Assembly: GCA_963811705.1 (NCBI GenBank)
Contig: CAWESL010000008.1
Location: 454,673-518,672 of the forward strand
From: Ignavibacteriota bacterium
GTDB taxonomy: Bacteria > Bacteroidota > Ignavibacteria > UBA10030 > UBA6906
DNA: 64,000 bases
Direction of reading: 5' to 3'
The notes under the pieces are model-generated. The model searched no databases and was not told the origin of the DNA. It saw only the letters and a list, made by a program, of their open reading frames with translations. The position numbers and the translations under genes were made by a program. This document shows, one piece after another, positions 13,737 to 62,635 of the stretch (positions within the stretch are counted from its first letter, which is position 1; every line of letters starts with the position of its first letter).

Positions 13737-14336
13737 TCATTCACGGAAGACGAGATGATGGGGGAGTTCGGGTGCGTTCACGTTGAGAGCCGCCAGGAAA
13801 GAGGGATCGGTCCGGTCTCGATCGAGCTGGAACAGGAGCGGCTCGGTCGTAAGAAACGATTGCGCGGGCTTTCCAACATAGGACCCGCAACTGCTGTAGA
13901 TCCATTCTTCGGGGTTTTTGACAAGTCCGGCATTGGAGGGATTAAGGTGAATGTACCGGGCAATCTGGAGGCAGCTATCGTCTTCACGCGCGACCTTCAT
14001 GCGGTAGCGTCCTTCGAAGAGGTGGCCGGTCCGAGAGAGCGAATGATTGACATGCTTGGCGTATTCTCCACAGACTGCTTCCATGAAGGCAGAGATGCCA
14101 AACGCCTTCAGTTGTTTGATCAGCATATGGAAATGGTTTGGCATGAGGCAGAAGGCCATGATTGATGCTTCTGCAGGGTTTAGGAAATGGTTCACGAAGT
14201 CGAGGAACTTCGTGTAGAACTTGTCAGACCGATAGATCACTTGTCGGTCGACTCCCCGGTTGTAGACATGGAACGCGCGGCCGGTAAGTCTCACCATTTC
14301 TTGTCGTGTGAATGACTTTCTATGTCCTCGGTTCAT
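13737..14336 (-). mobile_element. REP-associated tyrosine transposase (RAYT, Y1 HUH family)
   Basis: FHVYNRG, CLMPNHFH (HUH), GHLFEGRY, YIHLNP (catalytic Tyr), W.YSS; four REP-like palindromes directly upstream; start uncertain. Confidence 0.88.
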
Positions 14337-14499
14337 GGGATCCACCTTTTCATGAATATGGAGAGTGGCGTGAATTGTAGAGTATGGCGGCGGGAGCATC
14401 TCGTTGTCGAATTCGGCGGGGTCCGGTGAGTTGGCGGAGCGGAAGAGAGAGCCTACATAGTATATACTTTGCAGGGAAGTGTTTTCCGAAGCCAAGTGT

Positions 14500-14693
14500 A
14501 AAAAAAGTGGCAGGCTAGGCAACCTCTTTTCTGAGCGTCGAAAAAGTAGGTTGCCTAAGCAACCATCTTAATCTTGGTGCCGTTGACTCAAAATTGGCTT
14601 ATCTGAGGCGTATTGATCAGGAAAAACATGGCAGCCTAAGCAACCATGTTTTTCGAGACCCAAAAACATGGCAGCTTAGGCAACCATGTTTCT
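14500..14693 (+). repeat. REP-like palindrome cluster 2 (4 copies) upstream of RAYT
   Basis: Cores at 14509, 14549, 14630, 14670; the 14630 copy extends to GAAAAACAT...ATGTTTTTC. Confidence 0.9.
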
Positions 14694-22951: not shown

Positions 22952-23083
22952 GCAACCGTCTTAATGTTCGCAATTCCTCACTTTTGAGGCCGCAAACAAA
23001 GGACGAAAAACATGGCAGGTTAGGCAACCATCTTAATGTTGCCAAGCATCAAAAAACATGGCAGCCTCAGCAACCGCTTTTTC
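22933..23083 (+). repeat. REP-like palindrome cluster 3 (3 copies)
   Basis: Cores at 22942 (perfect GGTTGCCTAGGCAACC), 23014, 23060. Confidence 0.9.
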
Positions 23084-30267: not shown

Positions 30268-30286
30268 AATCTAAAATTTCCGTCCC

Positions 30287-30363
30287 CGGTTCGACCCGGG
30301 TCTGTCCCGGGTCTGACCCCGACCTGTCCCCGACCTGTCCCGGGTCTGTCCCGGGTCTGACCC
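30287..30363. repeat. 11-bp tandem repeat (GGGTCTGWCCC/CGACCTGTCCC x6-7)
   Basis: Read directly; the same motif recurs at about 63300-63317. Confidence 0.8.
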
Positions 30364-30459
30364 CCATGGAACCCTCTAATTCCTTTCCCTGTTTGCTCTC
30401 TGGTGCCTCTTCGTCACTACGGAGGGTCCCAAACACTGGGCCAATACAGGGAGGGTCGT

Positions 30460-34794: not shown

Positions 34795-35385
34795 CTATCG
34801 GGAAAAAAGGACGGAATCAAATGGGGCAGCTTCAGATCGTGCCGTCGCGAAATTGTCGCGCAGCGTAGATTGGTTCTTCTGATCCGTCGAGAGTTGTCGA
34901 TTCCGGGGCACGGTTTTAGCGAGAACGAAAGTGACAATGCCGACCACTGTCACGACAAGAATCCCGAATTGGCCGGTCCAGAGAGCAGGGTTGGATCCTT
35001 CTGTGTCGCGGGTGAAAGGACCTTCGATCACGGCACTCCAGGCGGAGTGGCCCAGCACCGCGCACCAGACGCTTCCTGTGTGTAGACGGAGTGTTCCCCA
35101 GAACACTGAAATCCCGACTGCCAGTCCCTGGAAGAGAAGGGCGGACAACGTGGGTAGGTCCTGCCGCGTATTGGCCTGAGAGGATGCGGGGCACATGCCA
35201 GAGTCACCAGATAACGCCGCTGGATGCCAGCGGGTGGAGAAGACCCGCGGTCGATGAGGCGTGTCCGCATGAAACCCCGTCAGCCGATCTCTTCACCGGC
35301 TGCAGTAGTGACTCCAACCACCGGAACCGAGCGTTAATGAAGCCCCGAGGGCCGCGAGAAAACGTCGATGAGATGAGCCAATCGT
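34795..35385 (-). pseudogene. Decayed CPBP (CAAX/Abi) intramembrane metalloprotease
   Basis: AAGEEIG*RGF (W to TGA), GVIW*LWHVP and TGSVW..VLGHSAW lie in different frames; 5' end lost at the REP pair. Confidence 0.75.
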
Positions 35386-35699
35386 GAAAAAGTTGGTTGC
35401 TTAGGCAACCATCTTAATGTTCGAAAACGGGCTCAAATAGGGCCGTCTTCATTGGAGAAAAAACATGGCAGCCTAAGCAACCGTTTTAATCTAACCTCTT
35501 CACCGGCTGCAGTAGTGACTCCAACCACGGAACCGAGCGTTAATGAAGCCGCGAGGGCCGCGAGAAAACGTCGATAAGATGAGCCAATCGTGAAAAAGTT
35601 GGTTGCTTAGGCAACCATCTTAATGTTCGAAAACGGGCTCAAATAGGGCCGTCTTCATTGGAGAAAAAACATGGCAGCCTAAGCAACCGTTTTAATCTA
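35289..35699. repeat. Tandem duplication of a ~205-bp unit, each containing a REP-like pair (cluster 4)
   Basis: 35289-35493 vs 35496-35699 differ by 2 substitutions and 1 indel; cores at 35395, 35467, 35601, 35673. Confidence 0.92.
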
Positions 35700-35709
35700 T
35701 CGCCTGTCG

Positions 35710-35829
35710 CTATTCATCCACCGGCGTCCACCGGTCCAGAAGCTTCTCCGGGATCCCGTCGATAAACCGCGATGGCTTCGAAAGGATCATCCCGCTTTCC
35801 CGGTCATACACGTTGATGGGGTAGGTAAT
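35710..35829 (-). repeat. Orphan duplicate of the last 40 codons of uvrD (direct repeat of 42774-42893)
   Basis: Encodes the identical peptide ITYPINVYDRESGMILSKPSRFIDGIPEKLLDRWTPVDE*; 8 differences, all at third codon positions. Confidence 0.93.
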
Positions 35830-35935
35830 GGCAGCCTACGCTGCCCTATTTTTCAGGCCAAGACAGAAACGTCATCCCTGTAATCTCTTACCCACGAGCC
35901 GGTTTCGGTGTGGCAAAACAAGGCAGCCTTGTTTT
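35830..35935. repeat. Two variant REP-like palindromes at the island edge
   Basis: GGCAGCCTACGCTGCC (35830-45) and AAAACAAGGC-A-GCCTTGTTTT (35915-35). Confidence 0.65.
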
Positions 35936-35939
35936 CCCT

Positions 35940-37769
35940 TCATCGCAGAAGAAGCATTGACTTCGTAACCGAATAGTTCCCGACGGTAAGACGGTAGAAA
36001 TAGACCCCGCTCGATAACGCCGCTCCGTCAAGAATGGCCTGGTAAGTGCCCGGCGATTGCCGCTCATCGACGAGCTCGGCAACGACTCGACCGAGCACAT
36101 CGTACACTTCCAATCGAACATCGCCCGCCCCTGGAATTGCATACCGAATCATGGTCGTCGGGTTGAATGGGTTTGGAAAGTTTTGTCCCAACATGTACTG
36201 CTTTGGTACTTCAATAAGCGCGCGAACGTCACTGGCCACGTATCCGGAAACGGTCACGTCGTCCACATACCATCCGAGATCTGCCCAGGGAGCATGAGAG
36301 GAAAAGGAGAAGCCGATTTGAGCCGACATTCCCGCGTAGGGGAGAAGATCAAGCGAGGGCGTGGTCCACGTCCCCCCGCCTGTTCCGGTATACGGGCCGC
36401 CAAGGTTCAACCACGGCCCTCCTTTAACCCTGATCTGAACGTACCCCGTATCTGAGGTAGAAAAACTATACCAGTGCCAGAACCGAAGGTGCGGATTGTG
36501 ATCGGAATCAGGAACCGCAAATTGCGGTGAGGTCAATCGCGATGCAGCATCGTCGATATAATTTCCGGCGAGTACTGTGGCCGCGCACTTGGTTCCGCTG
36601 TGTGCGATCCCCGGTCCACTCGTTGGCACACCCACCTGCCACGTCCCTGAGTCCGCGTACCAATCACCAATCCCGGTCTCCCAGTCCTCCGGGCTGCGCA
36701 GGATCTTGGGACCCGTCACTATGGCCACGTCATCGACATACCATCCGGCATCTGCCCATGGAGAATGAGAAGCGAAATAGAAAGCCAACTGGACAGTCAT
36801 TCCTGCATACGCCTTCAGATCAAGCGACGGCAATGTCCAAACGCCGCCACCCGTGCCGACATACGGTCCGCCAAGTGTCTGCCAGGGTCCTGTTCCGACT
36901 CTGATGAGAACGCGACCCGTATCGGATACTGAAAAACTAAACCAGTGTAAGAATCGGAGACGGGGGCTCTGACTGCTATCGGGCACCTCAAATGATGGTG
37001 AGATCAACCGCGTCGAAGCGTCGTCGATATAGTTTCCCGTCAGTACCGTCGCAGCACAATTGTTGCCTGAGTAGGCGGTCATGGGCCCGCTCGTTGGCAC
37101 ACCGACCTGCCATGTCCCGTAGTCGGCGTACCAATCGCCAATTCCCTCCTCCCAATTCTCAGGGTTATGAAATGTCTTTGGACCCGTGAGGACAGTAATG
37201 TCGTCGATATACCACCCCGCGTCTGTCCACGGCGCATGTGAGGTGAAATAGAACGCGAGTTGGACTGACAATCCCGCATACGCGCTCAAATCAAGCGAAG
37301 GCATCGTCCATACCCCACCGCCGGTGCCGACATACGGGCCCCCAATTTTCTGCCAGGCTCCCGTCCCGATTCTGATGAGAACATACCCAGAATCGGACGT
37401 TGAAAAACTGAACCAGTGCCAGAAACGGAGGCGCGGATTGCTCAGACTGTCAGGCACGATGATCGAAGGCGATATGAGCCGCGTGGAAGCGCCGTCGGAG
37501 TAATTCCCGGCGAGGACAGTTGCTGCGCACGCCAATCCGCCGTGTGCACTCCCTGGCCCGCTGGTGGGGGTTCCGACCTCCCAGGTCCCGAAATCCACGG
37601 ACCAGTTCTCAGACCAGTCACCTTCCCACCCTTCGTTCCAGACTGTATCGACACTCTGGGCATATGAGCCCTGTACCCAGATCAATAACATACAACACGC
37701 GGCAGCGGCGAAACGAAACGAATACGGCTGATGGGCGTGAACAGCGAATCTTCGAATGAATGTTTTCAT
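35940..37769 (-). CDS. T9SS-secreted protein with three tandem ~165-aa beta-sandwich (MAM/adhesin-like) repeats
   Basis: Repeated GTWxVGxPTSGP..A..G..CAATVL.GNY...LRFxHW...GWYxDD; QNFPNPFNP...SGVYFYRL CTD. Confidence 0.85.
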   Translation of the reverse strand: MKTFIRRFAVHAHQPYSFRFAAAACCMLLIWVQGSYAQSVDTVWNEGWEGDWSENWSVDFGTWEVGTPTSGPGSAHGGLACAATVLAGNYSDGASTRLISPSIIVPDSLSNPRLRFWHWFSFSTSDSGYVLIRIGTGAWQKIGGPYVGTGGGVWTMPSLDLSAYAGLSVQLAFYFTSHAPWTDAGWYIDDITVLTGPKTFHNPENWEEGIGDWYADYGTWQVGVPTSGPMTAYSGNNCAATVLTGNYIDDASTRLISPSFEVPDSSQSPRLRFLHWFSFSVSDTGRVLIRVGTGPWQTLGGPYVGTGGGVWTLPSLDLKAYAGMTVQLAFYFASHSPWADAGWYVDDVAIVTGPKILRSPEDWETGIGDWYADSGTWQVGVPTSGPGIAHSGTKCAATVLAGNYIDDAASRLTSPQFAVPDSDHNPHLRFWHWYSFSTSDTGYVQIRVKGGPWLNLGGPYTGTGGGTWTTPSLDLLPYAGMSAQIGFSFSSHAPWADLGWYVDDVTVSGYVASDVRALIEVPKQYMLGQNFPNPFNPTTMIRYAIPGAGDVRLEVYDVLGRVVAELVDERQSPGTYQAILDGAALSSGVYFYRLTVGNYSVTKSMLLLR

Positions 37770-37834
37770 GGATTCTCCTCGTCGTAACTCCCAAAGGAAT
37801 TTGTGATAGAGACAGTCGGAGCGTTCTCTTCCGT

Positions 37835-38620
37835 CTACAATCCGAACCGCATCTGGATGGTCGGAACCAATTCCGTCGTAACCCTCCCCGGCTGCTGAAT
37901 AGTTGCCAGCGGTCGCAGCAAGAAATTGAATTGCGGTTTCATGATCCCGCCTGTCGAAGTTCCCTGTGGGTCAAGCTCTTTCCTGGATTCCCATAGTTCG
38001 AGTTCCTCCTCATCGGCAGATTTGATGAGTGCGGGGATTGTTCCGCCGATGATAAGAGAAGCGCCTGCAAGATAGAGGAGCGTCTTCGCCGTGCCCGAGG
38101 CATCAGAGATGCCGGGGCCGGATTTCGGGTCGGTCTCACTTGCGGCAATGAGGATGATGCCCAGACCGGCGCCGCCTGCAGCAATCAGCCATTTCGTCTT
38201 TCCGGTGCGGCTGCGGCGCGCTGCCGATTGAAGATCAACAATGTGATAATTGCCGTTGAAGAGAACGCGAGCCGTGTCGATTCTCGTCGCGAGAGCGAAC
38301 GACGCAGGCTCCACGGAGACGACCGTTCCGTAGGAGCAATCATCTTCCCGGGTGAGTTTGAGGGCCTTTGGGAATGCACGCAATCGTGCCGATCGGGCCG
38401 GGAGTTCTTCGCTGCTCAAAGTGAACTCAGCATCCGGGTTGGAAATCGCCAGCGCCGTGATAATCCCTGCGCCTGCCACGACACATCCCGCAACGAGGAG
38501 ACCGGTATCGTATTCGGCAAAGCTGTCTTCGATCTGGCTGGAATAATTCGGCCACTGCGAGAAAGCATTTGAGAAGGCAGCAAGTGATGCGGTGAGCAAC
38601 GCTATGAAAAGGCGCTTCAT
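37835..38620 (-). CDS. Hypothetical exported/membrane protein
   Basis: GGAG RBS, signal peptide, Gly/Ala-rich hydrophobic segments. Confidence 0.65.
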   Translation of the reverse strand: MKRLFIALLTASLAAFSNAFSQWPNYSSQIEDSFAEYDTGLLVAGCVVAGAGIITALAISNPDAEFTLSSEELPARSARLRAFPKALKLTREDDCSYGTVVSVEPASFALATRIDTARVLFNGNYHIVDLQSAARRSRTGKTKWLIAAGGAGLGIILIAASETDPKSGPGISDASGTAKTLLYLAGASLIIGGTIPALIKSADEEELELWESRKELDPQGTSTGGIMKPQFNFLLRPLATIQQPGRVTTELVPTIQMRFGL

Positions 38621-38709
38621 GGTTTTCTCCGGGGGAAGGGAAGAACTCGTGCTGGCGAACGCGGGAAGAACTTCAACGGACAACATAGGGGAACAGAAGT
38701 GCAGGGGGT

Positions 38710-38726
38710 ACTACCCGAAGGGGTGG
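38710..38726. promoter_or_regulatory. Candidate NarL-type operator (copy 1)
   Basis: ACTACCCGAAGGGGTGG, 15/17 identical to 39437-39453; imperfect palindrome 90 bp upstream of the 38620 start. Confidence 0.45.
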
Positions 38727-38741
38727 ATTCTGAGCATCATT

Positions 38742-39350
38742 CTACTGTTTCATGACAGCACCGACCTTGTTCGCGACGTTGAGTTTCCTGTAGATGTTCT
38801 TTATGTGAAATTTGACCGTGTCCTTCGCAATGAACAACCCATCGGCGATCGCTTGATAGCTGTGTCCCTGGCGAAGGCGGGAGAGGACTTCCTGTTCGCG
38901 TCGCGTCAGTGGTTCGGGCAACGTCGTAGCACGGAACGATTCGGTGATCTTCCTCGCGATAGTCATGCTCATCGGCGCGCCTCCGTCCACGACCTCGGAG
39001 ATCGCCCTGAGGATTTCGGTTGCGGATGAGTTCTTCAATAAGTATCCCGACGCGCCGCTTCTCAGTGAACTAAGAATGACCTCATCTTCGACATGGACGG
39101 TCAGCATCACAATTTCCATCTCGGGCCACTGGTGCTTGACGATTCGCACCCCGTCGATGCCGGACATCCCGGGCAGACCGATGTCCATGAGCAGGACATC
39201 CGGTCTGCTGTGCCCAAGGTCTCGAATCGCAGCTTCGCAATCGGGATAGGTCGCGGCACATGAATATCCTTTCGATGATCCAAGCAGAGCGGAGAGTTTC
39301 TGACGCACGTCCTGGTCATCGTCCACAACGCTTACGAGGATTGATCGCAC
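38742..39350 (-). CDS. NarL/LuxR family response regulator
   Basis: VVDDD, LMDIGLPGMSG, GYLLK, LTRREQEVL...TVKFHIKNIYRKL. Confidence 0.93.
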   Translation of the reverse strand: MRSILVSVVDDDQDVRQKLSALLGSSKGYSCAATYPDCEAAIRDLGHSRPDVLLMDIGLPGMSGIDGVRIVKHQWPEMEIVMLTVHVEDEVILSSLRSGASGYLLKNSSATEILRAISEVVDGGAPMSMTIARKITESFRATTLPEPLTRREQEVLSRLRQGHSYQAIADGLFIAKDTVKFHIKNIYRKLNVANKVGAVMKQ

Positions 39351-39411
39351 TGCAGGTCTCCTTCCAGGTCGCAGGTCGAGGCTTCAGCGGGCGAGGGGGG
39401 GCACGGTGAAC

Positions 39412-42400
39412 TTACGCACCACGATCGTGTTGGGCAACTACCCGAACGGGCGGTTTGCCGCTAAAGTGAATGCATGTGCCCGTCCCCGGAGAGCCGGTGA
39501 TCGTCAGTATTCCTTTAAGGGTCTTCGCACGTCGGCGCATGTTTGAAATTCCATGCCCTGCTGTGATTTGCGCCGGATCGAAGCCTTTACCGTCGTCCGA
39601 GAGCTCAAGGATGAGAATGCCATCCTCGAACGACATCACGAGGGTGCTGTTTCTCGCTCCCGTCGCGTGGCGGACGACATTCGTCAGAGCTTCCTTGAAG
39701 ATCCGTGCCAGGTTCATACGCCACTCCGTGGTGAGGTGTATTCTTTCAAACTCAGGGGTAAGTCCCATGAGTCGGAAGGCGATCTCCGTGGATTCAAAAT
39801 GCCCATCGCTGAAGTTCTTCAAATATTCCGCCAGGTCCCGAAGGGAATCCTTTGCCGGGTCCATCTGCCATATCATCTCGCGCATCTCGTGGATCAGCGC
39901 GTTGGCATCGCCCGACAGCCTGCGGAGTTGCGTCGTGAGCGTTTTCCCTGCCTTGAACTGTGTCTGTTCCAGGACACTCGCGGTCATGGAAATCTTTGCC
40001 GCCCTGGCGCCCAGTTCGTCGTGGAAATCCGCAGCCATCTTACGACGGAGTTGTTCCAGCTCAAAAGTCATCGCGCGTTCGATCCGCAATGCGCGTTGTA
40101 TCCGGTAGCGCTGGGTCAGTAATGCCGATGCCAACACTATGGCGATCATGCATGCCCAGAACCACGGCTCCATCCAGAACGGTGGAGAAACATCGATGAC
40201 GAGGGAGAATGGTTCGCGGGTCCACTCCCCGTCGCTATTTGACGCCCTGATTTTGAGAACATAACGGCCGGGGGGGAGGTACGCGTAGTTCGCCTGTCGA
40301 ACCGTCGATGGTGTGGTCCAGCCTGAATCGAGGCCTTCCATCGTCCAACGATAGAGGTTCTTCGAAGGATCCTTGGTATGCAGAGCGACGAAGGAAAAAC
40401 TCAGAAGGCGCTGGTCGTACGGGAGCGTCAATGGAGAACCACTTGAGAAGGGCGGGGTTCCCACAGAATTCATCGCGAAGGATCGCACAGAGGTCACAAC
40501 GATGGTCGGTTGGATCGCATTAAATGTCCCCGATGGATCAAACGCACTGAAACCCTTGTCGCCCCCGATGAAGATCCTTCCGTCCCTTGCAGTGTATGCG
40601 GCGCCCAGATTGAACCCGTTCTCCGTAAGTCCATCTGCCACGAAAAACTTTGTGATCGTGCCTGTCGAGGGATTGAAGCGTGAGAGGCCGATTGACGTCG
40701 TCAGCCAGAGCATTCCGCTCGCATCCTGTTCCACTCCATACACGGTATCGTTGGAGAGGCCGTCCGACTCATCCCACGACTCCGTGTTCCCGGTGTCGAG
40801 GTCCGCTTTGACGAGTCCATGGCCGTCCGTTCCGAGCCATACGATCCCGCGATTGCTGGCATCCGGACGGATCGCAAATACGGTCGTCGCTGAGAGGTCG
40901 ATGCCGTTTCGTAATCGAAGCGGAACACGTTGATAGCCATCTGTTGCCGGATCCAATCGAACGAGTCCATGCCTCCAGGTTCCCAGGAGGAGTCGTCCCC
41001 TATCGTCAGCGACAATGGTGGTGATCCACGCCACGCTTTCGTGATCCAAGTACAATGGATGAGGGGTGAGAACGCCGTTTCGCTGATCGTACGACAACAC
41101 TCCGCTGCCGTTGGTACCGATCCAGAGCAGACCCCGCGTATCCTTGAAGAGAGCATAGATGGAAGTTTCAGTACCGTCCCGACGAGGGCGCAAAATGTGT
41201 GAGAGATCGGTGAAACCGGTTGCGGTGCGTTCAACCTTGTAGACTCCCGCCCGGAGCGTCGCCACCCAGAACGAAGGTCGTCCACCGGAAGAATCCTCCA
41301 GGATAGCGCGCACGGCTTCGGAACATTGCCACGATCGTATACAGTTGCCCGACGCCAGGTCCATCTCGCGCAGCGACGCACCGGTCCCGACAAGAATTCG
41401 TTGGACAGGATCTCGAGCGGGCTGACAGAAGGACCAGACCGCATTCTCCTTTACGATCGCCGCGCCAGTGTGCTGTGACTGATAGAACGCAAACCGGATC
41501 ATTCCAGGAGTGAACTTTCTCACTCCGTCCGCATGCGTGCCTATCCAGACGCTTCCGAACCGGTCCCCGTAGAGTGCGAGAATGCAACACGATCGACCTT
41601 CATCGCGCTGTGTTTCCAGTGGCAGAAACGGTGTCGACGATTCCGAGGCGAAGCGAAGATGGGAGCGAACGAAGACGCCGCGGTCGCGTGTGCCCGCCCA
41701 AAGTCCTTGCTGGAGGTCCTCGCCAAGCGATGTCACTTCGATACCGTCGATGAGCCCTTTTGTGATCGCCTTGAGCAGGGGATCGTACCTATCCAATCCC
41801 CGCCGTGTGCCGATCCATATCGAGCCGAGACTATCACACAGCAGCGCCCGGACGGTATCACACGAAAGAGCCGACTTCCTTTCTTTTGTTCCGCTGAAGC
41901 GGGAAATTCGGTCGGTCCGTGGTTCCCATCGGAAAAGCCCGCCCGGAGTGCCGAAGTAATACGCTCCATCCAGGCCCTTGCACATTGCCGCAACGTTTCT
42001 GTTGCGGAGTTCATTTCCAAGGGCACCGGTCATTTCGGAAAGTCTGAAGGAATTCTTCTCTTCCGTGAGGATCGACAAACCTCCTGTCGTTCCCACAAAG
42101 AGCTGACCACTGTCCATCGGCATGAAGGACGTAATGGCAGCGGATCGCGCAGGCAATCCCCATCGCTCAAACGAGTCGGTGGAGCGATTGTAGCGTGTCA
42201 TCCCCTCAAGGTCCCAACCCACCCACACCTCGTTTCGCCACTCGATGATGGCCCCGGCGCGATCGGTGATCGAACCCTGTTTCTCCCCATCCCTCGCCTG
42301 GTACTTCCGAATGGTATAGCCGTCGAATTTGTTGACGCCATCTTCGGTACCGAACCAGAGGAACCCGAGACTGTCCTGGAAGATTGCATAGACTGAATTG

Positions 42401-42627
42401 TGAGTGAGGCCGTCGTCAACGGTGATACGGTCAGAGGGCGCTGGCTTTCGCTGCGCATGGAGGGGTCCCACCAGGCAGGCAGTCGCGGCGAGGAACATCA
42501 CTATCGATGTGGCGATGCGCCGCCATCGATAATCGGAATGATCGACGGACATGAGGCAGAAAGTGTACGGAGTGGAACGTTTGGATTCACCGAGGAACGC
42601 AGTCGGTTTCAGGATCGAAACCGGCAC
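39412..42627 (-). CDS. Sensor histidine kinase with beta-propeller (Reg_prop/Y_Y_Y) periplasmic region, HisKA_3 type
   Basis: Repeated D..G.LW.GT..G blades, Y..LPPG.Y, PPFW TM, ADFHDELG, EALTN, DDGKGF, GHGISNM; start uncertain. Confidence 0.92.
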   Translation of the reverse strand: MPVSILKPTAFLGESKRSTPYTFCLMSVDHSDYRWRRIATSIVMFLAATACLVGPLHAQRKPAPSDRITVDDGLTHNSVYAIFQDSLGFLWFGTEDGVNKFDGYTIRKYQARDGEKQGSITDRAGAIIEWRNEVWVGWDLEGMTRYNRSTDSFERWGLPARSAAITSFMPMDSGQLFVGTTGGLSILTEEKNSFRLSEMTGALGNELRNRNVAAMCKGLDGAYYFGTPGGLFRWEPRTDRISRFSGTKERKSALSCDTVRALLCDSLGSIWIGTRRGLDRYDPLLKAITKGLIDGIEVTSLGEDLQQGLWAGTRDRGVFVRSHLRFASESSTPFLPLETQRDEGRSCCILALYGDRFGSVWIGTHADGVRKFTPGMIRFAFYQSQHTGAAIVKENAVWSFCQPARDPVQRILVGTGASLREMDLASGNCIRSWQCSEAVRAILEDSSGGRPSFWVATLRAGVYKVERTATGFTDLSHILRPRRDGTETSIYALFKDTRGLLWIGTNGSGVLSYDQRNGVLTPHPLYLDHESVAWITTIVADDRGRLLLGTWRHGLVRLDPATDGYQRVPLRLRNGIDLSATTVFAIRPDASNRGIVWLGTDGHGLVKADLDTGNTESWDESDGLSNDTVYGVEQDASGMLWLTTSIGLSRFNPSTGTITKFFVADGLTENGFNLGAAYTARDGRIFIGGDKGFSAFDPSGTFNAIQPTIVVTSVRSFAMNSVGTPPFSSGSPLTLPYDQRLLSFSFVALHTKDPSKNLYRWTMEGLDSGWTTPSTVRQANYAYLPPGRYVLKIRASNSDGEWTREPFSLVIDVSPPFWMEPWFWACMIAIVLASALLTQRYRIQRALRIERAMTFELEQLRRKMAADFHDELGARAAKISMTASVLEQTQFKAGKTLTTQLRRLSGDANALIHEMREMIWQMDPAKDSLRDLAEYLKNFSDGHFESTEIAFRLMGLTPEFERIHLTTEWRMNLARIFKEALTNVVRHATGARNSTLVMSFEDGILILELSDDGKGFDPAQITAGHGISNMRRRAKTLKGILTITGSPGTGTCIHFSGKPPVRVVAQHDRGA
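39437..39453. promoter_or_regulatory. Candidate NarL-type operator (copy 2)
   Basis: ACTACCCGAACGGGCGG, 87 bp upstream of the response regulator start, inside the kinase 3' end. Confidence 0.4.
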
Positions 42628-42773
42628 TCAGGCAGGCAAGACAAGGTAATCCGAACCGAACCGAGTATCAAGCGCATCGTTGAGTACTCGCAGACGAGAG
42701 AAGAAAACTCTTGAACAAGGCGACCCGGGACGCGTTGTTGCTTGGTTATTAGCAGGTTTCTCAGATCGATCAT

Positions 42774-43811
42774 TTACTCATCCACCGGCGTCCACCGGTC
42801 CAGAAGCTTCTCCGGGATCCCGTCGATAAACCGCGATGGCTTCGAAAGGATCATCCCACTCTCGCGGTCGTAAACGTTGATCGGGTAGGTAATATAAAGG
42901 TGCTCCTTCGCCCGGGTGCAAGCGACGTACATCAGGCGCCGTTCTTCTTCAATCGCGTCATCGTCCGTCGCCGCCCGCGCGGCCGGAAATCGTCCCTCCA
43001 ACGCGTACATCACGAAAACCGTGTTCCACTCAAGACCTTTCGCGCTGTGAATCGTCGAGAGGATCAGCTTCTCATCGTCGCTCCCGGGATCGCTGATGTC
43101 CGCGACGCTCTCCGTTGCCGGCTCAAGCGCAAGATCCGTCAGCAGCGTCGACAGTGAACGGTAGCGCTCAGTAATTTGCACGAACATCTCCAGGTCCTTC
43201 GCGCGCTTGTTGTGATCGTCGTACCGGAGTTTGAAGATCGGCTCATAGTACTGCAAGAGGCGCTGCACACGATCCGTCGGACTCAAATGTTCGGCGGAGG
43301 CGTCCTTCAGGGTCGCAAACAACGGGACGGTCTTCTCGGGGTAGGAATTGTAGCTCGGCCAAAAGGACGGGAGCCGGGTCGACGTCGCATCGCCGGCAGG
43401 TCCGACTCGTTTTGAAAGAATATCATCGAGAATCTTCTCGGCCGTGCGGGGGCCGACACCGTCCACCAGAAGCAGAATCCGGTTCCATGCGACAGCATCG
43501 CGGGGATTGTCCAGCACCCGGAGATAGGAGACGATATCCTTGATGTGGGCTGTTTCCATCAGCTTCAGGCCGCCGTACTTCACAAACGGGACGTTCGCCT
43601 TGGTGAGTTCCACCTCAAGATCGAAAGAAAGAAAGCCCGACCGGAACAGCACCGCAATCTCGCCCAAGGAGATCCCTTCTTCACGCAATTCGAGCACCTT
43701 CTGCACGATGAACCGCGATTGAATGTTCTCCGTCTGAGCGGCAATAATGGCCGGCAGCTCCCCTCCCAATTTGTGCGTGTACAGTTCCTTCGAAAATTTG
43801 TGCCGGGTCAT
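42774..43811 (-). CDS. uvrD: UvrD/PcrA-like SF1A helicase, C-terminal half
   Basis: AVLFR, STIHSAKGLEW, EEERRLMYVACTRAK; own ATG overlapping the HMT stop (ATGA) with AGGAAGG upstream. Confidence 0.88.
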   Translation of the reverse strand: MTRHKFSKELYTHKLGGELPAIIAAQTENIQSRFIVQKVLELREEGISLGEIAVLFRSGFLSFDLEVELTKANVPFVKYGGLKLMETAHIKDIVSYLRVLDNPRDAVAWNRILLLVDGVGPRTAEKILDDILSKRVGPAGDATSTRLPSFWPSYNSYPEKTVPLFATLKDASAEHLSPTDRVQRLLQYYEPIFKLRYDDHNKRAKDLEMFVQITERYRSLSTLLTDLALEPATESVADISDPGSDDEKLILSTIHSAKGLEWNTVFVMYALEGRFPAARAATDDDAIEEERRLMYVACTRAKEHLYITYPINVYDRESGMILSKPSRFIDGIPEKLLDRWTPVDE

Positions 43812-44653
43812 GCAATCGCCTTCCTGAGCATACGGATGTATTCCGGTGTCGTGCCGCAACATCCCCCGATGAACGTCGCGCCGAGTGCCGCCCAGCGCTG
43901 CGCGTACACGATGTAGTCTTCCGCCGCGATGTCGCACTCCATCGAGCCGTCGTGTTCATCGCCCGGCAGACCGACGTTCGCATAGACGCCGAAGGGAAGC
44001 GCTGACGCCGTGCGCAGGCGGTGGATGGCAATCCGCATGAAGCGCGGCGAAATACAATTGAGCGCGAGCGCCCACGGCCGGCAATCGTTGACGGCCTCCA
44101 CGGCGTCTTCGATCGGGTGCCCGTCGTAGAGATCTCCCGTTGTGGAGCAGAGAAAACTGACGACCGTCGGCAAACCCGTCGACGTTGCGGCCGTGCATGC
44201 CGCATGGGCTTCTCTCGCCGTCCCCATGGTTTCGCAGAGAAGCATGTCCACTCCGGCGTTCGCGAGACGCCGCGCATGGAGGGCGTGCTCCGCGGCGAGT
44301 TCCTCATCCGAGGGGACGAGGTCCGGACGATAGCAGTCTTCCAGCGGGGCGATCGATCCTGCGATTCTTACCGATCGATCAGGAAAGGCCGCGCGTGCCT
44401 GCTTCGCCAGGTCGACCGCCAGTGATGTAAGCTCTTCCGATCGGTCCGGGATTCCGGTAAGCCTGAATGTTCTCTGCGTTGTCCGGAACGTGTTGGTCGT
44501 TATGATGTCCGCACCTGCGGCAATGTACTCTTCATGAATGGTCCGCACCAGGCCCGGATCATCGATCAACGCATTCGCCGACCAGAGCGGAAGCCGCACA
44601 TTGGCTCCGCGCCGGGCAAGCTCAGTCCCCATGGCACCGTCTAGGAGCATCAT
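43808..44653 (-). CDS. Homocysteine S-methyltransferase family protein, lying between the two uvrD halves
   Basis: LLDGAMGTEL, GADIITTNTF, LNC, GGCCGTTPE zinc ligands. Confidence 0.92.
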   Translation of the reverse strand: MMLLDGAMGTELARRGANVRLPLWSANALIDDPGLVRTIHEEYIAAGADIITTNTFRTTQRTFRLTGIPDRSEELTSLAVDLAKQARAAFPDRSVRIAGSIAPLEDCYRPDLVPSDEELAAEHALHARRLANAGVDMLLCETMGTAREAHAACTAATSTGLPTVVSFLCSTTGDLYDGHPIEDAVEAVNDCRPWALALNCISPRFMRIAIHRLRTASALPFGVYANVGLPGDEHDGSMECDIAAEDYIVYAQRWAALGATFIGGCCGTTPEYIRMLRKAIA

Positions 44654-44654
44654 T

Positions 44655-44790
44655 GAGTACGCAGTAGGCAGTAAGGAGTATGCAGAAAACATACTGGATT
44701 CAGCCGGGAGTAGGAAGTATGACGTAGGAAGTAGGAAGAAAGCGGAGGCATTCGTCCCCCCCATCTTCCCATCTCCCCCATCCCCTCTCT
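44655..44790. repeat. Short 7/8-mer tandem arrays in the uvrD interruption spacer
   Basis: AGTACGC/AGTAGGC/AGTAAGG/AGTATGC; AGTAGGA/AGTATGA/CGTAGGA/AGTAGGA; CCCATCTY-type octamers abutting the uvrD-N stop. Confidence 0.75.
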
Positions 44791-45860
44791 CAGTCTCTCG
44801 CCCGCCGTATAATCTCGTTCGTTAAATCCAGAATCGGCTGTGTGCTCCGGTAATTCTCTTCGAGCTTGATGATTTTACAGTCGTCATACTGCTCGGGGAA
44901 CTCGAGGATGTTCCGCACGGTCGCGCCGCGGAAGCTGTAAATCGATTGCGCGTCGTCACCGACCACCATGACGTTGTGATGCCGGGAAGCGAGGAGCTGG
45001 ACGATTTCGGCCTGGATGAGGTTCGTGTCCTGGTATTCGTCCACCATGATGTATTTGTACCGGTCGCAAATCTTGGTCCGGACTTGGTCCACGTCGCGGA
45101 GCAGTTTCCGCAGATAGAGGAGAAGATCGTCGTAATCCATGAGATTGTGGCGCGATTTATATTCTTCGAATGCCCGTTGGAGCTGTCCGATCTCTTCAAG
45201 ATATCCTTCGTAGTGCGGGTATTCGTCCCGAAGCACCTCACGAAGCGGCCGGACGGTGTTGACTGCCTTGGAGAAGATATCGTAGAGCGTCTGCTTCCGC
45301 GGAAAGCGCTTCTCCTTCGTGTCGAACTTCAGCTTCGTCCGGAGCAGGTTCACCACATCTTCAGCGTCTCCCTGGTCAAGGATGCTGAACGATGACTCGA
45401 ACCCCACGAGGGGAGCGTACTGCCGCAGGACGAGGTTCGCGAAGGAATGGAAGGTCCCGCCGGCGACGTTTTCACAGCGGGCATCGAGCAGCATCGACGC
45501 CCGGCGCAGCATTTCTTGCGCCGCCCGGCGAGTGAACGTCAGGAGGAGGATAGCCTCCGGCTTGACACCCAGCTCGACGAGATAGGCGACGCGATAGACG
45601 ATCGTCCTGGTTTTCCCGGTGCCGGCGCCGGCGACGATGAGGTGCGGCCCGTTGACGGAAGACGCTGCCTCGTATTGCGCGGCATTCAGTTCGTTCCGGT
45701 AGTCGATCTTGAACTTCTGGGGAAGCGACGGTGCCGGTTCGAGCCCTGCGTCCGGGGTTTTCTTGAGGACGTATTTTTTCAACGTTGTTCGGTCTTGGTG
45801 CTCCAATTGGAAATTGGCAGTTGGGAATTCCCACGTGGCAATTGGGAACTGCCAATTCAT
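44790..45860 (-). CDS. uvrD: UvrD/PcrA-like SF1A helicase, N-terminal half
   Basis: Q motif LNAAQ, AGAGTGKT, TFHS, VDEYQD, VGDDAQSIYSFRG, EENYRS then stop; start is ATG 45860 (coupled to DUF72) or TTG 45782. Confidence 0.9.
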   Translation of the reverse strand: MNWQFPIATWEFPTANFQLEHQDRTTLKKYVLKKTPDAGLEPAPSLPQKFKIDYRNELNAAQYEAASSVNGPHLIVAGAGTGKTRTIVYRVAYLVELGVKPEAILLLTFTRRAAQEMLRRASMLLDARCENVAGGTFHSFANLVLRQYAPLVGFESSFSILDQGDAEDVVNLLRTKLKFDTKEKRFPRKQTLYDIFSKAVNTVRPLREVLRDEYPHYEGYLEEIGQLQRAFEEYKSRHNLMDYDDLLLYLRKLLRDVDQVRTKICDRYKYIMVDEYQDTNLIQAEIVQLLASRHHNVMVVGDDAQSIYSFRGATVRNILEFPEQYDDCKIIKLEENYRSTQPILDLTNEIIRRARD

Positions 45861-46861
45861 AATTTCTTGGCCGGGTACGCCTCCAGCGTGTCGAGGATCC
45901 CCTCGATCGTCTTCGGCGAATTCCCTTCGGCACGATTGTTCACGTACACATAGAGTGCGCGCTTTTCCGCGACGCACCGGTGCACCGCCTCGACAATTCC
46001 TTCCCGGAGTTCCGGGTTTTCTTCTTTGAGATGATCGTACGGCTTGAACATTTCCACCGCCTGTTCGTAGGTCCGTCCCGGTTTCAACAAGGCCCGGACG
46101 ACCGAAAAGTCCGTCGTCAACGTTCCCGAGATCCCGACCTGGCGGATGATCGGCGGCATGCGGGTCCAGTTGTTGAAGACATGCGAGACGCCGTGATCGG
46201 CGAGGAGCTTCAGGTAATCGCTCGTGAGAAAATCGCTGTTCCGTACCTCGACCGCATAGGAATACCCCCGGGGGAGCTTGGACAGAAAGTTCTCGAGGAG
46301 TGCCACGAAGCGTTCGTCGTCGATCCCGGAGTTCGGGTAGAATGTCGAGAACTCGAAAATGATCGCTCCCCGTTTTGTGCCGAGTGCGTCGAGCGGGCGG
46401 AGAAACGCGTCTTCGAAGAGGGCTGCGTTCAGAAAGTCCGGATTGTCCTTTCCGGCGAGAGCTCCGTAACGGGCGATGCCGGGATACCGGAACACGGTAA
46501 TTCTGTCGGTCACCTTCAGCGCGAGGCGAAAACCATCGGGGGTCTGATCATTGATGCGCTCCATCGTCTCGCGGTCGGGAAAATCGTAAAGCGCGAAATC
46601 CGCGCACACCGTCGGGAACAGCGCGGCATACTCCGCGAGGCATTCCTGCTCGAAGCTGCGCTGTGAGGCATATCGCCGGTTATACACCATCCCTTTCCAC
46701 CCCGGATATTTCCAGGACGACGATCCGAAGAGGATCCCGCGTGAGGCCCATGTCTCGAGCCGACTCTTGTTCCGTTCGACATACTCCGACGTCGGCGGCG
46801 GGGCTTCCGGAAAGAGCGGAAGGGTCGCATCCGCTGTTGGTGTCCGCTTCTTTTTTGGCAT
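45857..46861 (-). CDS. DUF72 family TIM-barrel protein
   Basis: GSSSWKYPGWKG.VY, YA..F.TV..D, YAVEVRN, YVYVNNRAEG. Confidence 0.88.
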   Translation of the reverse strand: MPKKKRTPTADATLPLFPEAPPPTSEYVERNKSRLETWASRGILFGSSSWKYPGWKGMVYNRRYASQRSFEQECLAEYAALFPTVCADFALYDFPDRETMERINDQTPDGFRLALKVTDRITVFRYPGIARYGALAGKDNPDFLNAALFEDAFLRPLDALGTKRGAIIFEFSTFYPNSGIDDERFVALLENFLSKLPRGYSYAVEVRNSDFLTSDYLKLLADHGVSHVFNNWTRMPPIIRQVGISGTLTTDFSVVRALLKPGRTYEQAVEMFKPYDHLKEENPELREGIVEAVHRCVAEKRALYVYVNNRAEGNSPKTIEGILDTLEAYPAKKL

Positions 46862-47900: not shown

Positions 47901-47972
47901 TCCCCCCATCTCCCTATCTCCCCATCTCCCCTTCGCGCGAAGGGGGGAAGGGGAGAACGGGGGAGGGGGAGA
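47901..47972. repeat. Pyrimidine/purine octamer hairpin element, copy 1
   Basis: (CCCCATCT)n-CCCCTTCGCGCGAAGGGG-(GGGAGA..)n; similar element at 51243-51330. Confidence 0.7.
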
Positions 47973-62450: not shown

Positions 62451-62635
62451 CAAAAACATGGCAGCTTAGGCAACCATATTTTGCTGACCTCAAAAACAAG
62501 GCAGCCTAGGCAACCACTTTTCCCTGGTTAAAAGCTCTCTTTTAGGCCTGAAGATAAAGAACAGAAAATATGGCAGCCTAGGCAACCATATTTTGCTGAC
62601 CTCCAAAACATGGCAGCTTAGGCAACCTCATTTTC
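62451..62635 (+). repeat. REP-like palindrome cluster 5 (4 copies)
   Basis: Cores at 62460, 62500, 62572, 62612. Confidence 0.9.

What the first reader, a model, noticed from the sequence alone, without database searches (positions are those of the whole stretch)
35710..42893. Integrase-less 6.9-kb island bracketed by duplicated uvrD 3' ends
Seen: 35710-35829 and 42774-42893 encode the same 39 aa plus stop, with 8 third-position differences around an ~80-bp identical core. The orphan copy ends exactly at a variant palindrome (35830). Between the copies lie a T9SS repeat protein, a hypothetical protein, a NarL regulator and a propeller kinase, with no recombinase. Known: islands that integrate in gene 3' ends restore the gene with their own copy. 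Inference: the cargo arrived with a uvrD tail from a related donor by homology-assisted insertion, with the other junction at a palindrome.
Basis: partly seen in the sequence, partly recalled or inferred. Interest (0 to 1): 0.7.

Follow-up and report, generated by a model that had tools for sequence, protein, structure and literature searches.

The report
Recombination scar beside a helicase gene
A soil Ignavibacteriota genome carries a second, orphan copy of the last 120 bases of a helicase gene on the far side of a lineage-specific 6.9-kb sensor and secreted-protein cassette, a real but fairly ordinary scar of gene exchange between related strains made without any integrase.

Summary
35710-35829 and 42774-42893 are two 120-nt copies of one gene end. 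They differ at 8 sites, all third codon positions and all synonymous, around an 82-nt identical core. The orphan abuts a truncated REP-like palindrome at 35830 with only 'AT' shared.

The 6.9 kb between the copies holds a propeller histidine kinase, a NarL-type regulator, an ORFan membrane protein and a 3xMAM T9SS protein, with no recombinase. No tyrosine or serine recombinase lies on the 535-kb contig.

The three other species of the genus each hold different genes between the same helicase stop codon and, in two of them, the same GH2 gene. None has the cargo or a second tail.

Best reading (0.6): an integrase-free insertion-duplication in a gene-exchange hotspot. One join was homologous, inside the helicase tail. 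The other was illegitimate, at a REP hairpin. The DNA came from a congeneric lineage. No donor and no empty site were found, and which tail is native is unresolved.

A short-read contig from another run covers both orphan junctions, which argues against an assembly chimera.

This is a new member of a known kind, of moderate to low interest. A side finding: the 'uvrD' is a PcrA/UvrD-like helicase split in two by a homocysteine methyltransferase gene, conserved across the family.

The parts
42774..42893 (-). Last 39 codons plus TAA stop of the functional helicase C-half gene (first repeat copy)
   Evidence: It is part of ORF 42774-43811, which matches UvrD_C (PF13361, 1e-47) and PcrA profile positions 299-638.
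35710..35829 (-). Orphan copy of the same 39 codons plus TAG stop. It has no start codon, and an in-frame stop lies 2 codons upstream.
   Evidence: Run X2 contig record 11 (251 nt, 0 differences) covers 35634-35884, across both junctions.
35714..35795 (.). 82-nt core identical in both copies (equals 42778-42859), long enough for RecA-dependent recombination between the repeats
   Evidence: There are 0 differences here, against 4-13 between species over the same stretch.
35830..35850 (+). Truncated REP-like palindrome (GGCAGC CTAC GCTGCC plus a T-run) at the illegitimate junction. Only 'AT' is shared with the REP consensus 5' arm.
   Evidence: (D6).
35851..35939 (-). Unique spacer after the cargo's last gene, with a 9-bp inverted repeat (35915-35935) right after the stop codon
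   Evidence: Read directly. The spacer is unique in the genome.
35940..37769 (-). Cargo gene 4: secreted protein with three MAM / choice-of-anchor-J repeats (471-nt period) and a T9SS C-terminal sorting domain
   Evidence: (D1).
37835..38686 (-). Cargo gene 3: 283-aa ORFan with a signal-peptide-like N-terminus and hydrophobic segments
   Evidence: Searches find no family. It is found in 0 of 67 other family genomes.
38742..39350 (-). Cargo gene 2: NarL/LuxR-type response regulator
39412..42627 (-). Cargo gene 1: hybrid sensor kinase (Reg_prop propellers, Y_Y_Y, HisKA_3, HATPase)
42628..42773 (-). 146-nt spacer between the helicase stop and the kinase ORF. No terminator-like site was found, so the cargo may be read through from the helicase gene.
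35289..35700 (.). Two tandem 206-nt units (98.5-99% identical), each with an inverted REP doublet (REPIN-like, 46 nt between arms). They start 10 nt after the orphan's stop and are terminator-like on the - strand.
   Evidence: (D2, D9, I4-I7).
34795..35196 (-). 5'-truncated CPBP/CAAX-protease gene fragment. It corresponds only to residues 204-304 of a 324-aa relative.
43808..44764 (-). Homocysteine S-methyltransferase gene lying between the two helicase halves. Its TGA overlaps the ATG of the C-half (ATGA).
44790..45977 (-). Helicase N-half (UvrD-helicase domain, PcrA profile positions 3-296)
13737..14522 (-). RAYT-like Y1 transposase gene next to REP cluster 14509-14685, the likely cognate of the REP family

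Best explanation
The interval between the helicase C-half gene and a GH2 gene is a gene-exchange hotspot without mobile-element genes. In this lineage it received a 6.9-kb cassette (propeller kinase, NarL regulator, ORFan, MAM/T9SS protein), or had the DNA next to that cassette replaced. The exchange was with DNA from another lineage of the same genus and used host recombination only.

One join was homologous, inside the last 120 nt of the helicase gene. It keeps the gene intact. The other join was illegitimate. It fused position -120 of a helicase gene to the foot of a REP hairpin downstream of the cargo, using 2 nt of microhomology. The product is an insertion-duplication: gene, tail, cargo, truncated REP, orphan tail, and the original REP-rich terminator region.

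Two routes give the same product. The first is a fragment closed into a circle that enters by a single (Campbell-type) crossover. The second is one-sided homology-facilitated illegitimate recombination. The data do not separate them.

Shown: the repeat, its synonymous-only divergence, the junction sequences, the lineage-specific cargo, and the lack of recombinases. Inferred: the donor, the order of events, and the enzymes. The 82-nt identical core would allow RecA-dependent loss of the island as a 7,064-bp circle, leaving an intact gene (inferred).
For: 1. All 8 differences are synonymous, P = 5e-6 under random change. Both tails therefore diverged as parts of working genes in separate lineages.

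2. In the 5' 36 nt the two copies differ at 6 sites, as much as different species of the genus do (5-8).

3. The orphan's 5' end meets a REP unit whose 5' arm is missing, with only AT shared. An assembler needs k-mer overlap and would not make this join. An independent short-read contig (X2 record 11, 35634-35884, 0 differences) holds both orphan junctions.

4. Ten nt after its stop, the orphan is followed by REP hairpins that look like terminators on the - strand. The full gene has no terminator-like site after its stop. The orphan therefore keeps a gene-end context.

5. Similarity between G000 and each of G001, G002 and G003 stops at the helicase stop codon. With G001 and G002 it resumes at GH2. 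The DNA in between differs in every genome.

6. The cargo was not found elsewhere. Kinase: best 43% among 67 family genomes and 40% in the 5.8-billion-protein set. ORFan: 0 of 67.

7. No recombinase was found: 4 cargo ORFs and 37 alternative ORFs, 0 of 8 Phage_integrase and 0 of 3 Resolvase hits on contig C8, and 0 of 47 scanned downstream ORFs (47 of the 87 listed) in 14 relatives' loci.

8. The flanking helicase gene is itself mosaic against G002. Third-position differences are 11/90 in codons 181-270 and 100/255 elsewhere, Fisher P = 9e-7. This shows homologous exchange at this flank.

9. The REP family is limited to the genus: G003 48 sites, G002 7, G001 0, G019 0, G041 0. The REP on the cargo side therefore points to a congeneric history.

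10. Published models match. One-sided homology plus illegitimate joining is described in PMC2884548 (passages, Fig. 7a legend). MGE-free hotspots with recombination in flanking core genes are described in PMC5635113 (abstract and passages).
Against: No donor and no empty site were found. The databases hold only species representatives (3 congeners), and the closest metagenome contigs (92% and 88%) are of the G001 type.

The zero differences in the 82-nt core beside 6 in 36 nt (P = 3e-4) are not produced by either route alone. They need conversion or repair, or a pre-existing identical block.

The diagnostic sites do not say which tail is native. The orphan matches G002 at 4 of the 6 5' sites. 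The full copy matches G002 at 1 of those 6 and at both 3' sites.

Co-directional HisKA_3 kinase (plus NarL) genes follow this helicase gene in 5 of 14 relatives' loci, plus L064. A cassette of this type may therefore be old at the site. However, the G019 cassette is the reciprocal best match of G000:C12, not of the window cargo.

Cargo composition is close to the genome: GC 56.5% against 57.1%, with GC3 0.61-0.68 against 0.70-0.73 in flanking genes.

Read support is thin. Contigs had depth 2-4 and may come from the same samples as the assembly.
Confidence: 0.6

Rival explanations
1. Remnant or hitch-hiker of a site-specific integrative element (CIME-like). The two tails would be attL and attR of an element that targets the helicase 3' end. 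Its integrase would have been lost, or it would act in trans from elsewhere.
For: The direct repeats are made of a gene's 3' end, have an identical 82-nt core, and leave the gene restored. This is the layout of islands at gene ends. CIMEs are defined as keeping attL and attR after losing their integration genes (PMC6323972, passages). The same genome has a classical tRNA-Lys island scar (note e1-1159139, not rechecked).
Against: There is no third copy of the core in the genome. None of 8 tyrosine-recombinase hits and none of 3 serine-recombinase hits is on this contig. Of 92 relatives' and metagenome loci, 0 carry a second tail. Of 47 ORFs downstream of the gene in 14 loci, 0 are recombinases. 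The cargo has no mobility, transfer or phage genes. The orphan carries 34 nt of gene sequence 5' of the core and ends inside a REP unit, which looks like a random break and not an att arm.
Confidence: 0.13
2. Local event without foreign cargo. A 120-nt piece of the resident gene was copied into the REP cluster, by a REP-mediated duplication or as repair filler. Later the functional gene's tail was swapped by allelic recombination, which produced synonymous-only differences.
For: The flanking gene is mosaic against G002, so allelic replacement does occur here. The REP zone shows other local rearrangements: a 206-nt tandem duplication at 98.5-99% identity and a truncated CPBP gene.
Against: This needs two separate short replacement tracts, sites 12-36 and 117-120, that spare the 82 nt between them. 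It does not explain why the cargo is absent from all congeners. Among 31 REP clusters in the genome, this is the only one with a duplicated gene fragment.
Confidence: 0.12
3. Assembly artefact. Two strains of a metagenome population were merged, so the duplicate is not on one molecule.
For: The genome is a metagenome-assembled genome with 4.4% estimated contamination. Related strains (90-99% identity classes) are present in the soil runs. The 82-nt shared core could mislead a graph assembler.
Against: The orphan/REP junction has only 2 nt of overlap, so no k-mer path creates it. It recurs with 0 differences in a separately built short-read contig that spans 35634-35884. The spacer 35851-35939 that leads into the cargo is unique in the genome. 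Contig composition is homogeneous, with tetranucleotide r of at least 0.93 and above 0.99 for most contigs over 200 kb.
Confidence: 0.07
4. REP/RAYT-driven event. The Y1 transposase cut at the REP hairpin and joined the single strand to the helicase gene, either moving the cargo or trapping the gene fragment.
For: The break lies at the foot of the REP hairpin. A RAYT-like gene with flanking REPs lies 21 kb away, and all 3 Y1_Tnp hits are on this contig.
Against: Only 1 of 31 REP clusters has such a fragment. The other end of the island has no REP. RAYTs are described as mobilising REP doublets, not cargo (PMC3116915 and PMC3337134, abstracts only).
Confidence: 0.05

Closest known systems
Homology-facilitated illegitimate recombination / insertion-duplication by a single crossover (de Vries & Wackernagel 2002, Prudhomme et al. 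2002, Meier & Wackernagel 2003, as cited in PMC2884548, where I read passages and the reference list)
   Same: One end of the incoming DNA is anchored by homology to a resident gene. The other end is joined at a few bases of microhomology. No mobile-element enzyme is needed, and foreign genes are trapped next to the anchor.
   Different: Those cases are laboratory transformations of competent bacteria, and from recall they usually delete recipient DNA. This is a natural case in an uncultured Ignavibacteriota genome. It duplicates 120 nt of the anchor, has the illegitimate end at a REP hairpin, and shows an unexplained identical core.
MGE-free hotspots of horizontal transfer flanked by recombining core genes (Oliveira et al. 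2017, PMC5635113; abstract and passages read)
   Same: The same interval between two conserved genes holds different genes in each related genome. It has no integrase or transposase. There are signs of homologous recombination in the flanking core gene, and the flank is a recombination/repair-type gene.
   Different: The published model is clean double homologous recombination, which leaves no scar. Here one end fell inside the flanking gene and was closed illegitimately, so a visible duplicate remains. Only 4 species could be compared, not a population.
Islands and prophages that integrate in a gene's 3' end and carry a replacement end, and their integrase-less derivatives, the CIMEs (definition from PMC6323972, passages; the e14/phage 21 icd example is recalled, not checked)
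   Same: A displaced gene-end copy lies on the far side of the inserted DNA. The gene is kept intact, and the differences between the copies are synonymous.
   Different: No integrase, cognate element or third att copy was found. The cargo has no mobility genes. The orphan's outer end is a random-looking break inside a REP unit.
REP/REPIN-RAYT systems (PMC3116915 and PMC3337134, abstracts; PMC3390384, passages)
   Same: Short imperfect palindromes occur in intergenic clusters and inverted doublets. A RAYT-like gene is flanked by them, and the family is confined to one lineage.
   Different: Here the REP is only the break point of a larger rearrangement. The phylum (Ignavibacteriota) is not among those covered by the papers I read, which deal with Pseudomonas and enterobacteria. 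In this assembly the REPs are confined to 4 of 22 contigs.

Membership tests
Integrase-type genomic island / CIME at a gene 3' end | Direct repeats (attL/attR) derived from the target gene's 3' end, with the gene restored | tested here: met
   Two 120-nt copies with an 82-nt identical core, and the gene is intact.
Integrase-type genomic island / CIME at a gene 3' end | A site-specific recombinase in the element, or for a CIME a related element with the same att site that supplies it | tested here: not met
   None in the island. None of 8 PF00589 hits and none of 3 PF00239 hits is on contig C8. The genome has only 2 copies of the core. Of 92 loci, 0 have a second tail. Of 47 downstream ORFs in relatives, 0 are recombinases.
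Integrase-type genomic island / CIME at a gene 3' end | Excision to a circle and an empty site | not testable with these tools
   Only low-depth contigs were available. This needs PCR or deep reads.
Homology-facilitated illegitimate recombination / insertion-duplication | One junction inside sequence homologous to a resident gene | tested here: met
   Similarity to the resident gene runs from -120 to the stop codon and ends there.
Homology-facilitated illegitimate recombination / insertion-duplication | The other junction has no homology, or only a few bases of microhomology | tested here: met
   At 35829/35830 only AT is shared between the helicase sequence and the REP consensus.
Homology-facilitated illegitimate recombination / insertion-duplication | An identifiable donor and an uninterrupted recipient site | tested here: not met
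   Neither was found in 40 relatives, 67 family genomes, 65 metagenome loci, 80 genome-contig loci or the 5.8-billion-protein set.
MGE-free HGT hotspot (sense of PMC5635113) | The same pair of flanking conserved genes holds different accessory genes in related genomes | tested here: met
   G000, G001 and G002 share the helicase and GH2 flanks but hold 7.9, 2.9 and 6.3 kb of unrelated genes. G003 differs again.
MGE-free HGT hotspot (sense of PMC5635113) | Raised homologous recombination in the flanking core gene | tested here: inconclusive
   The gene has a mosaic third-position divergence against G002 (11/90 against 100/255, P = 9e-7). There was no genome-wide baseline and only one pair of genomes.
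REP/REPIN with RAYT | A short imperfect palindrome repeated far above chance in intergenic DNA, often as inverted doublets | tested here: met
   21 hits in the window against 0.28 expected. The genome has 108 cores in 31 clusters. Doublets have 46 nt between the arms (I4-I7), and the doublet recurs on C8 and C2.
REP/REPIN with RAYT | A cognate Y1 (HUH) transposase gene flanked by the REPs | tested here: met
   ORF 13737-14522 scores 43.6 bits on PF01797 (cut-off 23). Its best NCBIfam is REP_Tyr_transpos at 62.8 bits, below that model's cut-off of 80. REP cluster 14509-14685 adjoins it.
UvrD/PcrA (DNA helicase II) proper | A single polypeptide of about 720 aa that scores above the equivalog cut-offs | tested here: not met
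   Two ORFs match PcrA profile positions 3-296 (274.6 bits) and 299-638 (165.5 bits), against a cut-off of 911. A separate 752-aa UvrD-type frame lies on contig C12. 'UvrD/PcrA-like, split' is the safe name.

The most novel reading that the evidence does not exclude
The cassette is a recurrently mobile, integrase-free unit. It carries its own 120-nt copy of a conserved helicase gene end as a homology address. It leaves as a circle and enters related genomes by host RecA through the 82-nt identical core, and REP hairpins (possibly cut by the RAYT) supply the break that closes the circle. This would be homology-guided island mobility in a phylum where mobile elements are little studied.
Probability: 0.1. 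Interest if true: 0.6.

Novelty: new member of a known kind. Interest (0 to 1): 0.3.

Why it matters
Many hotspots of gene gain lack any mobile-element gene, and the proposed mechanism, host recombination at flanking core genes, normally leaves no trace. Here one exchange was closed imperfectly. It preserves both junctions at nucleotide resolution: a homologous one inside a repair-helicase gene and an illegitimate one at a REP hairpin. That makes a natural example, in uncultured soil Ignavibacteriota, of how a sensing module and its secreted protein can be added without an integrase. It also predicts that the module can be lost again through its 82-nt repeats. It does not reveal a new kind of element.

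Tried and rejected
1. Empty site or donor. I searched 40 relatives with the helicase C-half and 67 family genomes with the kinase. I scanned metagenome contigs with the C-half (65 loci), genome contigs (80 loci) and the 5.8-billion-protein set with the kinase. No conspecific genome, empty site or close cargo relative turned up. The two nearest metagenome contigs (92% and 88%) are of the G001 type.

2. Reads. Five soil runs hold at most 26% of the sampled words. Four were laid. No contig skipped the island and no alternative junction was listed at 35710, 35829, 42774 or 42893. Depth was only 2-4, cover was patchy and 28 loose ends were not shown, so this says nothing about population variants.

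3. Ancestral cargo. G019 has the order helicase, kinase, NarL, T9SS proteins. Reciprocal tblastn puts that cassette with G000:C12:99816-107563 (53% and 71%), not with the window cargo at 32% and 46%. The G041:C270 cassette is the reciprocal best match of the cargo, at only 43%, 62% and 52%. I did not read the rest of that contig.

4. General REP-linked capture of gene fragments. Of 31 REP clusters with 300-nt flanks, only this one has a duplicated gene piece. The other non-REP matches are a local tandem repeat, a G-rich repeat family and T9SS sorting-domain paralogues.

5. Composition. The cargo's GC is close to the genome's and gives no verdict.

6. Nativeness of the tails from the 8 diagnostic sites. 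The pattern is mixed and undecided.

7. Earlier scan notes near this place: none.

8. I did not fold any protein or predict a complex, because no claim here needs it.

Full report
WHAT IS THERE

The window is G000:C8:454673-518672 of a 5.18-Mb, 22-contig genome, estimated 100% complete with 4.4% contamination. Record titles of its relatives place it in Ignavibacteriota, and all relatives are metagenome-assembled genomes.

On the - strand, 42774-42893 is the end of an intact ORF, and 35710-35829 is an orphan copy of that end. Both encode ITYPINVYDRESGMILSKPSRFIDGIPEKLLDRWTPVDE plus a stop. They differ at 8 of 120 positions, all third codon positions and all synonymous. An 82-nt core (35714-35795) is identical in both. 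The genome has only these two copies.

In simulation, 8 random changes left the peptide intact with P = 5e-6. The run of 26 identical third positions had P = 3e-4.

THE GENE IS NOT A WHOLE uvrD

Pfam and NCBIfam show that the ORF ending at 42774 is only the C-terminal half of a PcrA/UvrD-like helicase: UvrD_C, PcrA profile positions 299-638. The N-terminal half (PcrA positions 3-296) is a separate ORF at 44790-45977. A homocysteine S-methyltransferase gene (43808-44764) lies between them. Its TGA overlaps the ATG of the C-half.

The order N-half, methyltransferase, C-half is seen in 8 of 8 larger relatives' loci. It is seen in 15 of 19 small loci. Two more of those have the C-half alone, and two have N and C adjacent without the methyltransferase.

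Among 80 loci from all phyla, 58 have N and C in one open frame. Six, all labelled Ignavibacteriota, Ignavibacteria or Bacteroidota, have the methyltransferase form. Six Ignavibacteriales-type loci have a C-half with no N-half within 1.9-3 kb upstream. This is a side finding (see NOTICED IN PASSING).

THE CARGO

Between the copies lie four genes (D1, 8, 65):
- a Reg_prop/Y_Y_Y/HisKA_3 kinase (39412-42627);
- a Response_reg plus GerE regulator (38742-39350);
- a 283-aa protein with no family (37835-38686);
- a protein with three MAM / choice-of-anchor-J repeats and a T9SS sorting domain (35940-37769).

None of 37 further ORFs of 60 aa or more in the island and its left flank hits Pfam. The genome's 8 tyrosine-recombinase hits and 3 serine-recombinase hits are all on other contigs.

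No terminator-like site follows the helicase stop. The cargo may therefore be transcribed with the helicase gene.

THE JUNCTIONS

The orphan's 5' end abuts GGCAGCCTACGCTGCC followed by a T-run (35830-35850). This belongs to a palindrome family with 21 hits in the window against 0.28 expected. The family's consensus unit is AAAAACAT-GGCAGCCTAGGCAACC-AYNTTTTT. At 35830 the AAAAAC arm is replaced by helicase sequence and only AT is shared, so this is an illegitimate join at the foot of a REP hairpin.

The family behaves as REP/REPIN elements:
- It forms inverted doublets with 46 nt between the arms.
- The doublet recurs on contigs C8 and C2.
- A RAYT-like gene at 13737-14522 lies beside cluster 14509-14685. 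It scores 43.6 bits on PF01797 (cut-off 23). Its best NCBIfam is REP_Tyr_transpos at 62.8 bits, below that model's cut-off of 80.
- The family is confined to the genus: G003 48 sites, G002 7, G001 0, G019 0, G041 0.

Ten nt after the orphan's stop begin two tandem 206-nt units, 98.5-99% identical. Each holds a REP doublet, and the hairpins are terminator-like on the - strand. So the orphan keeps the look of a gene end with its terminator.

Further on lies a 5'-truncated CPBP protease gene. Only the part matching residues 204-304 of a 324-aa relative remains. That relative was found in 1 of 40 other genomes. The whole stretch 34825-35850 is therefore a patchwork.

IS IT AN ARTEFACT?

The junction has no k-mer overlap that an assembler could follow. 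A separately built short-read contig from soil run X2 (record 11, 251 nt, no differences) covers 35634-35884. That span includes both ends of the orphan and 34 nt of the unique spacer leading to the cargo. The run may be from the same sampling effort as the assembly, and its depth is only about 2.7. I rate an artefact as unlikely but not excluded.

RELATIVES

Similarity between G000 and each of the three other species of the genus stops at the helicase stop codon. With G001 and G002 it resumes at or just before the GH2 gene. What lies in between differs:
- G002 has a convergent Laminin_G/T9SS protein, a NarL-type regulator and a frameshifted propeller kinase. These are 25-38% identical to the window's proteins.
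- G001, and two metagenome contigs of its type, have two convergent ORFs without families.
- G003 has glycoside hydrolases.

None of these has a second tail. Of 92 relatives' and metagenome loci, 44 show one tail and 0 show two.

The cargo kinase has no match at E<=1e-100 in G001 or G002, a 34% match in G003, and a best match of 43% in 67 family genomes. In the 5.8-billion-protein set its cluster has one member, from the window's own contig, and the next best protein is 40% identical. The 283-aa protein is found in none of 67 other family genomes.

The best cargo relative, G041:C270, has kinase, regulator and MAM protein in the same order, at 43%, 62% and 52% identity. It is the reciprocal best match of the cargo, so the cassette is a functional unit.

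A CAUTION

Co-directional HisKA_3 kinase genes, mostly with a NarL-type regulator, follow this helicase gene directly in 5 of 14 annotated loci (G019, L057, L058, L059, L061) and in L064. I scanned 47 of the 87 ORFs listed for those 14 loci. A cassette of this general type may therefore be old at this position.

The G019 cassette, however, is the reciprocal best match of G000:C12:99816-107563, at 53% for the kinase and 71% for the regulator. It is not the match of the window cargo, at 32% and 46%. The window cargo is thus not the vertical descendant of that neighbour.

HOW IT MOST LIKELY AROSE

Synonymous-only divergence means that the two tails were parts of working genes in separate lineages. 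In the first 36 nt they differ as much (6 sites) as species of the genus differ from each other (5-8 sites). The flanking helicase gene is itself mosaic against G002. Third-position differences are 11/90 in codons 181-270 and 100/255 elsewhere, P = 9e-7. Homologous exchange between lineages therefore does happen at this flank.

Together with the variable content and the lack of mobility genes, this fits a hotspot without mobile elements. Such hotspots are fed by host recombination at flanking core genes (PMC5635113, abstract and passages). [quoted passage not shown]

The orphan shows that one exchange was not a clean double crossover. One end recombined within the last 120 nt of the helicase gene. 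The other end was an illegitimate join of helicase position -120 to a REP.

Two routes give exactly this product:
- A linear fragment running from -120 to the REP closes on itself and enters by a single crossover (insertion-duplication).
- One-sided homology-facilitated illegitimate recombination, the model drawn in PMC2884548 (Fig. 7a legend and passages).

A mirror version cannot be excluded. In it, the DNA from the orphan to GH2 is the incoming piece and the cargo was already resident.

The 8 diagnostic sites do not decide. The orphan matches G002 at 4 of the 6 5' sites. The full copy matches G002 at 1 of those 6 and at both 3' sites.

The identical core is not explained by either route alone. 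It suggests heteroduplex repair or later conversion between the repeats. It is also long enough for RecA-dependent deletion of the island. That last point is an inference, using the 30-bp threshold quoted in PMC2884548.

RIVALS

- A decayed or trans-mobilised site-specific element (CIME-like, definition from PMC6323972). It fits the repeat layout but fails the test for a recombinase or a cognate element.
- A purely local duplication followed by allelic replacement. This needs two short tracts that spare the core, and it does not explain the lineage-specific cargo.
- A RAYT-driven event. Only the position of the break supports it, and only 1 of 31 REP clusters carries a gene fragment.

NOVELTY AND VERDICT

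The structure is a natural example of known processes, not a new kind of element. It is of moderate to low interest.

The most novel reading still open is a cassette that uses its helicase-tail copy as a homology address for repeated RecA-dependent entry and exit. I put this at about 0.1.

LIMITS

- Relatives are single representatives of species, and no conspecific genome was available.
- Read evidence is from low-depth contigs.
- The REP cleavage idea, the icd/e14 comparison, and the statement that laboratory cases usually delete recipient DNA rest on recall.
- Papers were read as passages or abstracts, as stated in each citation, and no supplements were consulted.

Noticed in passing
window 42774-45977 (- strand); relatives L004-L030, L121-L200: The PcrA/UvrD-like helicase is split exactly between PcrA profile positions 296 and 299 into two ORFs, with a homocysteine S-methyltransferase gene in between. 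The methyltransferase stop overlaps the C-half start (ATGA). Both halves are conserved and open across the family (8 of 8 large loci, 15 of 19 small loci). In contrast, 58 of 80 loci from other lineages have one fused frame, and 6 Ignavibacteriales-type loci have a stand-alone C-half. This looks like a stable gene fission caused by insertion of a whole gene.
   Followed up: partly
whole genome G000; window clusters 9562-9920, 14509-14685, 22942-23075, 35395-35845, 62460-62627: The REP-like palindromes (108 cores in 31 clusters) occur only on contigs C2, C8 and C15, with a few on C1. All three Y1_Tnp (RAYT-like) hits are on C8. The other 18 contigs (about 3.7 Mb) have none, although tetranucleotide composition is uniform. 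This may be large REP deserts or a regional distribution. Counts in the congeners differ widely: 48, 7 and 0.
   Followed up: partly
window 35289-35700: A 206-nt tandem duplication at 98.5-99% identity. Each unit holds 105 nt of locally unique sequence plus a REP doublet. Soil-run contigs show variant joints inside this zone.
   Followed up: partly
window 34795-35290 (- strand): A 5'-truncated CPBP/CAAX-protease pseudogene. Only the last third or so remains, and its open frame starts at the edge of the REP tandem unit. A full-length relative (324 aa, 54% identity in the blastp alignment) was found in only 1 of 40 other genomes. One soil contig replaces 35125-35251 with 20 other bases.
   Followed up: partly
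window 42774-43811 versus G002 (L023): Mosaic divergence in the helicase C-half. Codons 181-270 differ from G002 at 11 of 90 third positions, and the rest at 100 of 255. This points to a recent recombination tract shared with the G002 lineage.
   Followed up: partly
window 44759-44778 and 47901-47972; also C2:605784-605938, C10:194243-194460, C15:93384-93712 and many C8 sites: A second dispersed repeat family of G-rich short-period tandem units (GGGGAGATGGGAAG-like) sits in intergenic DNA. One array lies between the helicase N-half and the methyltransferase gene (D7 and I1, 44, 74).
   Followed up: no
window 30282-30375: Six overlapping copies of an 11-nt-period repeat (GTCCCGGGTCT-like) between two ORFs (D3).
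   Followed up: no
G019 (L028), L057, L058, L059, L061, L064; G000:C12:99816-107563: A HisKA_3 kinase with a NarL-type regulator directly follows this helicase gene in several other genera. The G019 copy is orthologous to a cassette that lies on another contig (C12) in G000. This implies the linkage was broken or the cassette moved in this genus.
   Followed up: partly
G002 L023:9694-12730: The propeller kinase at the equivalent site in G002 is in two overlapping frames (600 and 727 codons). This is either a frameshifted gene or an assembly error.
   Followed up: no
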